Below, one piece after another: positions 27,001-30,000 of a stretch of 54,742 nt of DNA. The stretch's first letter is position 1. Every line of letters begins with the position of its first letter. A program made the position numbers. Origin of the DNA: Chthonomonas calidirosea (GTDB lineage: Bacteria > Armatimonadota > Fimbriimonadia > Fimbriimonadales > Fimbriimonadaceae); the NCBI GenBank assembly GCA_945859975.1, contig CAMAPH010000017.1, positions 1 to 54,742 of the forward strand, given 5' to 3'.

Positions 27001-30000
27001 GCGGCGCTGCCTTCGGCGCTGTCTGGTGTCTCGTAACGATCTTCTTCACAAATCGTGAGCTCAAGAAAATCAAAGCACGGCGACTCGATGATCAGATCAC
27101 CGGCCTAATTGTTCTGTCTCGATACGCGACCGAAACCGTAGCCGCGCTAACTCAAACGAGCCAAATCTTGCGCTGCGTTCGTGTGATCGATACCGAAAGT
27201 AGCCGGCCAAACTACGTGGCGAGCAATCAAAATGAGTCCGTTCAAAGGCAACTCGACGAACTCGAGGGTTTAGCCATAAACGACCGGATCGCGGTTGATC
27301 GGGATAGCCCGGACGACATCATTACCGCTATCTTTCACACGCTGGTTGAATTCGAATCACGTGGCGTGTTGCGCAGATCGACCGTGCTGGATGTGACCGA
27401 CGTCCCTGGGGACATCTTTGCCCGCCTTGTTCAAGAGTACGGCTCACACATCAAGGCATTTCAGGTCATTCCAAAGCGCCTTTCGGCATCTGGAAAGCAA
27501 AAGCTGGGCACGATGACGGCGTTTAGCGACGCCGACTATGAAACGTTGGCACCTGTTCGATTCCGAACCACCGACATCCGCGTTGACTGGCCACTTAATA
27601 CCTAGGTCGGCACCCACTTCGTTCTGTGTGGATGCATCACGCCGGGGCCAAACATATTACAATCGGGTAATACCTAGGTACGGCAACGGAGCCGTGAGCG
27701 TGATATTGGTGACAGCACCGCAAAACCTAAAAGAATCGATCTACCGCACCATCGCACAGCATCGGCTCGGCATGTTTACCGCCGACGTTTGCGATGCCCT
27801 CAAAAAAACAAGCCAAGACCTGGGCAGCAGTTTTGAAGCCCTCCTCGCCGAGGGTCGGCTTCATAGCTTTGCCGGATTCTGGATGGTTCCGGAGACCTTC
27901 GACAAAGCCGCCGAAAGGTTCTTGGACGAACTGCGTCGCCAGCAATCCGCCGACCTACGCGTCGTGTATTTTGACGCCGAGGCCATTGCAAAAGCCGTCG
28001 ATTTGCCGTGGCACGGAAAGCCCTTGCAGCGCATCGTCAGCCTGCTAGAAAGCCGAGGCGCGCTCCGAATCGATCTACTTCACATCCGACTCACCGACTT
28101 GACCCTAGAACTCACGCCACGGCAAGTCGATCTTCTGGCGCGGGCCATGCCTTTCGTGAAGCAGAATCCCGTCAACGTCTTAAGCCCGGCAGAAATCGCC
28201 CGCGCGCTTGTGGTTCCGATTCCGGCCATCTCCGAAATCCTTCGCTTAGGCACATTCGCGGACCAAACGATTGAGGTCACGGAGCAGATGTACTACTCGC
28301 CAGAGCAGATCGAGGCGATTCAACAAACGATGCGTGAGGCGTTTGGAAAGCGGGAATTCACCGCGAGCGAAGCGCGTCAGGCCCTGGGCACGAGCCGAAA
28401 GTACATCATTCCGATTCTCGAGTACCTCGATGCCAGCGGATTTACCAAACGAAGTGAAGACCTAAGGACAATTGCTTAGGCGATCAGAGTTCGAAGCGCA
28501 GCTCCAACCGATGCCGGCTTCATAACAATGCACTCCACATCGCCGTACCCTTCCGCCAGCAGGCGTGCGGCCAGCGCTTGGCCCTCCGGCGCACGGATCA
28601 GCAATCCTTCCGGGTGCCGCTGGACCGAAACCTGGAACGGGGACACCAAAGCCCGCACCGCGCCTTGATGCTCAGTTCGTACGATCATCTCGGTCTCCGA
28701 CACCCGCGTCAGCAACTCCTCCACGCGCCCCGCAAACCGCACCTCAAGCGCGCTGAGCACTATCACCGCATCGCAAAGCTCCACGATTTCGGGCCGGTGG
28801 GTCGCAATGACATCGCATACACCCGCGCTGCTGCCCTTTTCTAAATGCCCCCAAACCGAATCAAAGGTCCAAGGGTCCAGATCATCAAGCTGGCCATCCC
28901 AGAGCCGAACATCTGCCGATGAGCTGAGAAGGGCAAGCGTCTCCGCCGCGGCTTCTTGGCTTGGCGAAAGGTCAGAAACCGAATGTGCCCGAACATCCCA
29001 GAGCCGCGTTGCGACGAGGAGTTCCGTGGACTGCGACGCTGAATTCTCTTGAGTCCGCTTCGCGATCGTTTGCGGCTTGCTCCTCGGAGAGAGCGTTCCC
29101 GGTTCAAGAAAGAACACCTCACCTTCAGAGTGAACGCTCCCTTCTTCCAGTCGATCCTGTCCCGCGATTGCCCGGAGCAGCCGAGATTTGCCCGATGCTC
29201 CTGGCCCCACGACGGCGAGCCGCTGGCCGGCCGCGAGCGACAGGGTCATTGCCAAGCCCCGTCCGCAAAGGCGAACCTGGCTCAGCGCAACCCGATCAAC
29301 TCTCGATTGGACGGCATTCATACGTTAGGCAAAACGAGCAGTTCCTTCGTGGAGTGGGTCAATCGCCGCACTCCGTTCTCCTCAACTACCACGTCATCTT
29401 CGATTCGCACGCCACCGAATCCCGGCACATATGCTCCCGGCTCGATCGTCCAAACTTGCCCGACCTCGATGACATCTGTGCTAGTCGGAGACAAGCGCCC
29501 CGTGTCATGGACCAAGCGACCAAGCCCATGGCCCAATCCGTGGCCAAAGAACTTGCCAAGTTCGTGCTTGGTGAGAATGTCGCGAGCGATCGCGTCAACC
29601 TGAGCACCCGTCATGCCAGCCTTCATCTGCTCAAGAACCGCGACCTGAGATTCCAGAACTGCCGCATAGTGCTCGCGGTGCCGATCTGAAGCCTCACCCA
29701 CAACAACCGTTCTTGTAATGTCGGAGTTATAGCCGTTCAGACTCGCGCCAAAGTCCATGGTGACGAAGTCGCCGATCTCCAACTTCTTCTCGCTCGGCAC
29801 ACCGTGAGGGCGAGCGCTCCGCTCCCCGCTGACCACGATCGGATCGAAAGCGATTCCTGCACCTTGTCGCTTGAAGAAGAATTCAATCTCAATCGCGATA
29901 TCGAGTTCTGCAACGCCAGGCTGGATCAGGCGAAGCACATGATCGAAGCAAGCGTCGGCAAGATTGCACGCCGCTTCAAGCTTCTCAATTTCATCCGCAG

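What a model noticed while it worked through the whole genome (the two positions that open the first line are those of the whole stretch)
27700..28479. SelB winged-helix half kept as stand-alone gene after loss of selenocysteine
The genome has no SelA, SelD or tRNA-Sec but keeps the C-terminal winged-helix region of SelB (259 aa, SECIS-binding helix intact) as its own gene without the GTPase. Relatives that lost selenocysteine mostly keep the same trimmed gene under purifying selection, so this RNA-binding half has a second job.
Evidence so far: SelA over the cut in 16 of 41 genomes, the SelB wing domain in 38 of 41. All 15 SelA-bearing genomes with a wing match have 616-650-aa frames; 20 of 23 SelA-lacking ones have frames under 480 aa (exceptions G002, G018, G028). 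No tRNA-Sec or SelD over the cut in G000, G014, G012, G039; both present in G024. Trimmed genes start with their own Met at 254-261 aa and stay beside the asparaginase gene; dN/dS about 0.03-0.07 in three pairs and 0.06 for G000/G014. Search 87 listed nothing relevant.
(Added by a program. Inside this text positions count along the whole contig: contig position 1 is position 1 of the stretch shown here. "Call 12" and the like, gene names such as g00115 and contig names such as C1 are that model's own, and its searches are not shown. The text may have been shortened before it was handed on; [...] marks where a part breaks off. The agent that wrote the report below was given it as the finding of a first reader that could run no searches.)

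Follow-up and report, generated by a model that had tools for sequence, protein, structure and literature searches.

The report
SelB RNA-binding half outlives selenocysteine
Bacteria of one family that have repeatedly stopped using the amino acid selenocysteine still keep, under strong selection, the RNA-binding end of the protein that used to insert it, which points to a second job for that protein that we did not find described.

Summary
Confirmed and extended. Window 27700-28479 encodes only the four winged helices (domain IV) of SelB. SelA, SelD, tRNA-Sec and the GTPase half were not found here or in a closed near-identical genome. Across 110 genomes of the family (Fimbriimonadaceae, at least 95% complete), 48 of 48 lacking SelA keep the wing region. 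They form a graded series: eroded pseudo-GTPase, WH1-4 only, WH3-4 only. Selenocysteine was lost several times and each lineage trimmed at its own junction. dN/dS is 0.02-0.06, like neighbouring genes and intact SelB. The WH4 arginine R233 is invariant (65 of 65), while the wing residues relax. In two families WH3-4 is fused to a long Arg/Gly-rich tail. Most other Armatimonadota families, and 16 of 19 SelA-less genomes of an outgroup phylum, show no wing match, so retention is lineage-specific. A selected second function is about 90% likely. Most probably it is binding of structured RNA with loosened specificity, on or near the small ribosomal subunit (0.45). The partner is not identified and nothing is shown experimentally.

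The parts
27700..28479 (+). Trimmed selB: SelB domain IV only (WH1-WH4), 259 aa, GTG start
   Evidence: Translation; Pfam PF09107; profile columns 366-617 of 619; AlphaFold2 mean pLDDT 95.9; best Foldseek hits are SelB C-terminal fragments 1lva, 2uwm, 2ply, 1wsu
27688..27691 (+). GGAG, Shine-Dalgarno-like, 8 nt before GTG 27700
   Evidence: Read from the sequence; GGGG at this place in G014 and G036; function inferred
27718..27885 (+). WH1 (approximate); conserved T..IC..L..T.Q.LGD.FE.L...G....F[AG]G.W
   Evidence: Secondary structure of the model; conservation
27889..28092 (+). WH2 (approximate); conserved basic residues K107 and R111
   Evidence: K107 in 41 of the 45 selenocysteine-less rows with a residue there
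28117..28296 (+). WH3 (approximate); Q142, R148, P173, A176 conserved
28300..28473 (+). WH4 (approximate) with R226 (28375-28377) and invariant R233 (28396-28398), then the wing T249/R251/R256
25881..26753 (+). Asparaginase_2 / isoaspartyl-peptidase-like gene, the ancestral upstream neighbour of selB
   Evidence: Pfam PF01112 E 4e-59; same-strand neighbour in 46 of 77 loci examined, with and without selenocysteine
26769..27605 (+). 278-aa orphan gene between asparaginase and trimmed selB
   Evidence: No Pfam over cut-off; 97% identical in G014, 36-aa remnant in G036, no match in other loci held then
28476..29321 (-). Convergent ABC-ATPase-like gene, 4-nt overlap with the stop; not a conserved neighbour

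Best explanation
The gene is what remains of selB after selenocysteine was lost, and it is kept because the winged helices do a second, selenocysteine-independent job. SHOWN (by sequence): the GTPase and tRNA-binding domains erode and are deleted in place, lineage by lineage; new start codons arise, often just behind the asparaginase stop; the wing region stays under purifying selection; the smallest kept unit is WH3-4. INFERRED: the job is binding of structured RNA by the WH4 helix (R226, R233) with loosened sequence specificity, since the helix arginines are kept while the wing residues drift and two lineages added long basic Arg/Gly tails. INFERRED, least secure: the site is the small ribosomal subunit at the mRNA entrance, where SelB domain IV normally sits, so that it acts as a GTP-independent accessory factor that holds or remodels RNA hairpins during translation or subunit assembly. 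The job probably already exists in the full-length SelB of these bacteria. Odds: selected second function about 0.9; RNA binding about 0.7; ribosome-associated general role about 0.45.
For: Wing profile in 109 of 110 family genomes, SelA in 62 of 110; the one miss has SelA, so 48 of 48 SelA-less genomes keep it, including two 1.5-Mb genomes. dN/dS over WH1-4: 0.030 (G012/G010, dS 0.79), 0.044 (G012/G019), 0.046 (G000/G036), 0 amino-acid against 13 silent changes (G000/G014); intact SelB control 0.052; neighbours 0.012-0.055 against 0.061 for the whole frame; WH3-4-only forms 0.017 and 0.051. The rpoB tree needs 8 state changes, 6 forced by well-supported branches; seven genera are mixed for SelA; deletion junctions differ. 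R233 in 65 of 65 selenocysteine-less rows, R/K226 in 64 of 65, against D244 46, T249 43, R251 37, R256 44 of 65 (each 26 of 26 in selenocysteine users). Arg/Gly tails of 435 and 543 aa, net charge +45 and +36, in families f1 and f18. PMC4605307 (passages): WHD3-4 bind the SECIS near the mRNA entrance, WHD1-2 contact 16S helix 16 in a docking model, and a hinge separates WHD1-2 from WHD3-4.
Against: No RNA partner was found and no binding or expression is shown. 19 of 65 forms lack WH1-2, the part modelled against helix 16. The protein is not strongly basic: G000 net charge is 0, -1, -4, +2 for WH1-4, and WH4 averages +1.7 against +3.5 in selenocysteine users. Many lineages do without it: families f19, f20, f29 show neither gene, and f8, f22, f27, f28, f32 have equal counts of wing and SelA. 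Some clades diverge fast (G006/G007/G035 differ at 48-66% of sites at rpoB distance 0.06-0.08) and G035 and G355 lost the wing end. One origin of the WH1-4-only forms is rejected only narrowly (p-AU 0.045). That R226/R233/R251 equal the SECIS-contacting R599/R606/R624 of Moorella SelB is a mapping through plus recalled structure work, not read here.
Confidence: 0.45

Rival explanations
1. Specific post-transcriptional regulator: the wing binds one SECIS-like hairpin (own operon leader, a former selenoprotein mRNA, a tRNA or small RNA) and controls its translation or stability, as E. coli SelB is recalled to do at the selAB leader.
For: G000 keeps the complete WH4 motif TSRKYIIPILEYLD..FTKR..D.R; WH3-4 is the minimal unit and is the SECIS-binding unit (PMC4605307, passages); WH3-4 is more constrained than WH1-2 in close pairs.
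Against: Wing residues relax across the family. No shared hairpin was seen by eye in the 90 nt before the asparaginase start in the loci folded, no window of silent-site constraint in asparaginase or wing gene, no Rfam SECIS_2 match in G000, no Rfam match over gathering near the gene. These are weak negatives: a target elsewhere in the genome was not searched properly.
Confidence: 0.22
2. Protein or DNA partner: the tandem winged helices act as an adaptor (for example docking on EF-Tu in trans, on uS4, or on the co-translated asparaginase-like hydrolase) or as a DNA-binding regulator.
For: The polar face of WH1 helix 3 (Q39, G42, D43, E46) is as conserved without domain III as with it; asparaginase is the upstream neighbour in 46 of 77 loci, 2-73 nt before the wing region in 12 of 21 selenocysteine-less loci; one short relative is named 'DNA-binding Lrp family transcriptional regulator' by its source.
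Against: The only invariant residue is the WH4 arginine; 19 of 65 forms lost WH1-2; the forms examined in f4, f16, f18, f30 and G385/G386 are not beside asparaginase in the loci fetched; adjacency follows from deletion in place; the WH1 helix is acidic, unlike DNA-reading helices (inference); Foldseek ranks SelB far above transcription factors.
Confidence: 0.2
3. Slow decay of a useless gene from its 5' end, the 3' part surviving by chance or because of operon structure.
For: Graded erosion down to about 110 aa; long stem branches in selenocysteine-less clades; weak matches in G248, G258, G253; one stop inside the match in G035.
Against: dN/dS 0.02-0.06 with likelihood-ratio statistics of 36-254 against neutrality; synonymous sites turned over about once or more while frames stayed open; 48 of 48 retention while SelA is gone; even the weakest pair G248/G258 has dN/dS 0.051.
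Confidence: 0.05
4. Artefact of incomplete assemblies, or a split SelB whose GTPase half and Sec genes lie elsewhere.
For: G000 is 95.8% complete and lacks some tRNAs and a visible EF-Tu; G018 has full SelB and SelD but no assembled SelA.
Against: One-contig genomes G014, G400, G188, G196, G051 show the same pattern; no match over the selB cut-off in G014, G012, G036, G033, G025; borderline tRNA-Sec hits checked are Ser, Leu or Arg tRNAs.
Confidence: 0.02

Closest known systems
Bacterial SelB domain IV (WH1-4; PDB 1LVA, 2UWM, 2PLY, 1WSU, 4ZU9; Pfam PF09107; TIGR00475)
   Same: Same four-winged-helix fold, same WH4 helix motif, same ancestral locus as full-length selB of relatives.
   Different: No GTPase, domain II or III; no SelA, SelD or tRNA-Sec found in the genome; wing residues relaxed in many relatives; cannot deliver tRNA.
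Orphan SelA and orphan SelD kept in organisms without selenoproteins (PMC1794560, PMC5029168, passages); SPS1 in insects (recalled; bioRxiv 10.1101/014928 seen as a listing only)
   Same: A piece of the selenocysteine machinery survives loss of the trait, suggesting another role.
   Different: Those are whole enzymes. Here it is the RNA-binding half of the elongation factor, trimmed repeatedly to domain boundaries. PMC5029168 reports perfect consistency between SelB and the Sec trait.
Engineered SelB lacking WH3/4 (bioRxiv 10.1101/2025.02.04.636165, passages)
   Same: Shows that the two halves of SelB are separable.
   Different: Mirror image: the engineered form keeps the GTPase and drops the wings; these genomes keep the wings.
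Automatic database label 'SelB C-terminal domain-containing protein'
   Same: A 254-aa Armatimonadota relative carries this label.
   Different: A domain label only; many such records elsewhere may be contig-end fragments (P0120 clusters with a 632-aa member); no function or link to loss of selenocysteine is attached.

Membership tests
SelB (Sec-specific elongation factor) | N-terminal GTPase domain with GHxDHGKT, DxPGH and G4 motifs | tested here: not met
   Profile columns 1-365 unmatched in the locus, and no SelB-like N half elsewhere in G000 or G014
SelB (Sec-specific elongation factor) | Domains II and III that bind Sec-tRNA | tested here: not met
SelB (Sec-specific elongation factor) | Four tandem winged helices | tested here: met
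SelB (Sec-specific elongation factor) | WH4 residues conserved in SECIS-binding SelB | tested here: met
   G000 has R226, S232, R233, K234, P238, D244, T249, R251, R256, the residues (near-)invariant in 26 selenocysteine users; only partly met in many relatives
SelB (Sec-specific elongation factor) | Binds a SECIS hairpin | not testable with these tools
   Needs a binding assay
SelB (Sec-specific elongation factor) | Co-occurs with SelA, SelD and tRNA-Sec | tested here: not met
SelB (Sec-specific elongation factor) | TIGR00475 score above 242.25 bits | tested here: not met
   27.9 bits
Pseudogene remnant | Neutral evolution, stops or frameshifts | tested here: not met
   dN/dS 0.03-0.06 and open frames
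Winged-helix transcription factor | Match to a DNA-binding wHTH family or fold above SelB | tested here: not met
   No such Pfam or NCBIfam match; IdeR and Mga only at E about 0.01-0.02; Atlas search of residues 1-135 gave nothing above 0.76
Winged-helix transcription factor | Sequence-specific DNA binding | not testable with these tools
   Needs an experiment
Ribosome-associated factor | Binds 30S or 70S | not testable with these tools

The most novel reading that the evidence does not exclude
SelB domain IV is a translation or ribosome-assembly factor in its own right in Fimbriimonadales, so important there that every loss of selenocysteine sampled (48 of 48 genomes, even 1.5-Mb ones) leaves it behind as a GTPase-free protein; SelB would then be a two-job protein, and the stand-alone wings an undescribed family of small-subunit RNA-binding factors that has arisen many times, also in a second phylum.
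Probability: 0.4. Interest if true: 0.85.

Novelty: new variant of a known kind. Interest (0 to 1): 0.72.

Why it matters
SelB is treated as a single-purpose factor and as the marker of selenocysteine use (PMC5029168, passage). Repeated, selected retention of its wings without any selenocysteine machinery says it has another job, and supplies natural minimal constructs (WH1-4, WH3-4, WH3-4 plus Arg/Gly tail) and one invariant residue with which to find that job. It also warns that SelB-like hits, including eroded forms of about 595 aa, can miscall the trait. No paper describing this turned up in nine full-text searches of the open library; subscription journals are largely not covered.

Tried and rejected
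Hidden or split Sec system: rejected. SECIS-like target: the selD hairpins of 20 selenocysteine users were folded; a pattern scan of G000 gave 20 hairpins, 4 with a TGA 26-33 nt upstream, not followed up and with no chance control; Rfam SECIS_2 0 matches in G000; Rfam over 24000-31000 one sub-threshold match outside the gene. RNA-level constraint in the asparaginase or wing gene: none seen. Gene neighbourhood: no shared neighbour other than asparaginase among 49 neighbours scanned. Expression: two metatranscriptome runs of one study with small word share; one 261-nt contig covers 27830-28090 with 5 differences at depth 3.9, but contigs in an RNA library do not show transcription, so it is not used. 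Sigma-70 promoter and terminator scan: at chance level. In-frame TGA contexts (CxxU-like) in G000: 201 TGA, 129 TAG, 89 TAA, not separable from background and dropped. Arg/Gly tails had no close counterpart in G000. Complex prediction with uS4: tool not available, no result. ESM Atlas clusters of 200-290 aa in other phyla were not used because they may be fragments. Errors of mine, corrected: G031 rpoB read on the wrong strand (fixed); the asparaginase query was out of frame (those rows ignored; redone); one search crashed and one search's tree did not finish. dN/dS values from pairs with saturated dS (above about 3) are not used. G029 (gap of N) and G038 (contig end) were left out of the conservation counts; G161, G214, G275, G135 (full-length, intact P-loop) were left out of the selenocysteine-less set.

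Full report
OBSERVATION. Window 27700-28479 (+) is an open frame of 259 aa. It matches Pfam SelB-wing_3 at residues 218-257, solved SelB C-terminal fragments by sequence and by fold (1lva E 4.5e-15; 1wsu rmsd 1.9 A over WH3-4), and folds as four winged helices with mean pLDDT 95.9. Against a profile of 22 full-length SelB from selenocysteine-using relatives it covers columns 366-617 of 619 and nothing before. The closest named records belong to Fimbriimonadaceae (record titles). SelA, SelD and tRNA-Sec were not found in G000. Because G000 is 95.8% complete, absence is taken from the one-contig genome G014, whose protein is identical over the matched residues 2-259: none of the three and no second SelB half; its other TIGR00475 matches are below the cut-off and have the lengths of ordinary translational GTPases (their identities are inferred from length).

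DISTRIBUTION. In 110 family genomes at least 95% complete, a profile of the wing region matched 109 and SelA 62; the single miss has SelA. So 48 of 48 genomes without SelA keep the wing region, among them two of 1.5 Mb and the one-contig G400 in a genus whose other ten members have SelA. I read the sequence of all 48. Five are near full length with an eroded G domain (GHxDHGKT changed to GPHEAGKS, switch I and G4 lost); six keep a middle remnant; 27 have the wings only (one starting in WH2); ten have WH3-4 only. In a first draw of 61 genomes SelA, tRNA-Sec and SelD tracked each other with few exceptions (22, 22 and 24 over cut-off), so SelA is a fair proxy. Outside the family the picture is mixed. 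In 301 phylum genomes, families f8, f22, f27, f28 and f32 have equal counts of wing and SelA, and f19, f20, f29 have neither. But trimmed or eroded forms also occur in f5 (G040), f4 (5 of 5 genomes read, WH3-4), f16 (3 read, WH1-4), f18 (3 read, WH3-4) and f30 (2 read). Other SelA-less genomes with a wing match (G275, G135, G161, G214) have full-length SelB and are best read as assembly gaps or contamination. In the phylum of G403 (titled Candidatus Xenobia), 19 of 121 genomes lack SelA; 16 have no wing match and 3 keep a gene of about 190-200 aa covering roughly WH2-4. The profile is centred on Fimbriimonadales, so distant remnants may be missed. All 14 out-of-phylum loci hold long, GTPase-bearing SelB, one cut by a contig end. 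G516 is unpublished and enters only those tallies.

REPEATED ORIGIN. The rpoB tree of 61 genomes needs 8 changes of state, 6 forced by well-supported branches; selenocysteine-less G040, G023 and G027 each sit beside users. Seven genera are mixed. Full and trimmed genes share one locus, behind an asparaginase-like gene (46 of 77 loci, some too short to show it). In 13 users the asparaginase stop lies 1084-1193 nt before WH1 (one 2288); in 12 of 21 non-users it lies 2-73 nt before the kept part, with different junction sequences. The wing tree follows the species tree in outline and needs 4 changes; one clade of the WH1-4-only forms is rejected only narrowly (p-AU 0.045). I read this as several deletions in place. 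Regain of the trait by transfer was not tested formally, but it fits the shared locus less well.

SELECTION. Pairwise codon likelihood (my own GY94 script) gives dN/dS over WH1-4 of 0.030 (G012/G010), 0.044 (G012/G019), 0.046 (G000/G036) and 0 amino-acid against 13 silent changes (G000/G014), with 0.052 for an intact pair. Eight neighbours of G000/G036 give 0.012-0.055 against 0.061 for the whole frame. WH3-4-only forms give 0.017 and 0.051. Even the eroded N half of G002/G025 has 63 amino-acid against 124 silent differences in 271 codons, with dS saturated. Against this, stems leading to selenocysteine-less clades are long and the G006/G007/G035 clade diverges faster than users at like rpoB distance: constraint shifted or loosened after the loss, then held.

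WHAT IS KEPT. Among 65 selenocysteine-less sequences R233 is invariant and position 226 is R or K in 64; P173 and A176 of WH3 are kept in 63 and 61. D244, T249, R251 and R256, each 26 of 26 in users, fall to 46, 43, 37 and 44 of 65, counting lost ends as misses. R233 is also in 73 of 73 short representatives from metagenomes and in the three outgroup genes. Through the gap-free alignment these are R599, R606 and R624 of Moorella SelB; that these touch the SECIS is recalled, not read here. PMC4605307 (passages) states that WHD3-4 bind the SECIS near the mRNA entrance, that a hinge divides WHD1-2 from WHD3-4, and that WHD1-2 touch 16S helix 16 in a docking model. The natural cut points match these boundaries. 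In G188 and G196 (f18, one contig each) and G253 (f1) WH3-4 is followed in frame by 435-543 residues of Arg/Gly/Asp repeats with net charge +36 to +45 (G188 and G253 measured); such tails are typical of RNA-binding proteins (established knowledge). G000 itself keeps the whole motif.

MECHANISM. Shown: loss of the tRNA-delivering half, selected retention of the wings, a WH3-4 core, an invariant arginine. Inferred: the kept function is binding of structured RNA with loosened specificity (about 0.7), most likely at the small subunit where domain IV normally lies (0.45). Rivals are a regulator of one hairpin (0.22), a protein or DNA partner (0.2; the acidic face of WH1 helix 3 stays conserved without domain III), decay (0.05) and artefact (0.02). 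Searches for a target hairpin found nothing but were not exhaustive. Expression is not shown.

COMPARISON AND NOVELTY. It is not a member of SelB (GTPase, domains II-III and companion genes absent) but is its domain IV. Retention of orphan SelA and SelD is described (PMC1794560, PMC5029168, passages), while SelB is called the signature of the trait with perfect consistency (PMC5029168, passage). Nine searches of the open library found no description of stand-alone SelB wings; PMC5330540, PMC8659212 and bioRxiv 10.1101/2025.02.04.636165 were seen as passages and add none; supplements were not read and subscription papers are mostly outside the library. Databases carry such proteins under an automatic domain label.

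VERDICT. Real, well supported as a selected exaptation, function open. New variant of a known kind; interest 0.72.

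Noticed in passing
L171:4887-7280 (G188), L172:4502-6934 (G196), L173:5376-7022 minus (G253): SelB WH3-4 fused to a long Arg/Gly/Asp repeat tail, in two different families.
   Followed up: partly
window 26769-27605: 278-aa orphan gene with a hydrophobic N-terminal stretch between asparaginase and trimmed selB; GC 0.53 against 0.56-0.61 beside it; dN/dS 0.09 against G014; only a 36-aa remnant in G036.
   Followed up: partly
window about 27595-27680: The 12-mer TAATACCTAGGT occurs twice about 73 nt apart, once at the orphan gene's stop and once upstream of the trimmed gene (read); not tested against chance.
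   Followed up: no
L064, L059, L244-L246 (G002, G025, G351, G352, G356); P0010, P0016, P0017, P0019, P0023, P0044: Near-full-length SelB with eroded GTPase motifs, still constrained in G002/G025: a pseudo-GTPase stage.
   Followed up: partly
L220 and alignment A2: uS4 of the 23 other family-f1 genomes searched and G000 is only 36-39% identical to uS4 of sister family f5 and lacks its CxxC motif, which suggests replacement by a different uS4 type.
   Followed up: no
L191-L210 (selD starts): 19 of 20 selD genes have UGA followed by two hairpins; in G048 the codon is UGC and both hairpins are degraded.
   Followed up: partly
L163 (G161): Full-length SelB interrupted by one in-frame stop between domain II and III, with tRNA-Sec directly behind the gene.
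   Followed up: no
upstream of the asparaginase gene, window about 25868-25880 and loci: A TAnnnT-like hexamer sits a few bases before the start codon in many relatives, as expected of leaderless mRNA (inference).
   Followed up: no
G035:C105:68170-69072: SelD over the cut-off, with no in-frame TGA, in a genome without SelA or tRNA-Sec: an orphan or other-trait SelD.
   Followed up: no
L270-L272 (G445, G501, G514): Trimmed SelB wing genes of about 190-200 aa in SelA-less genomes of a second phylum.
   Followed up: partly
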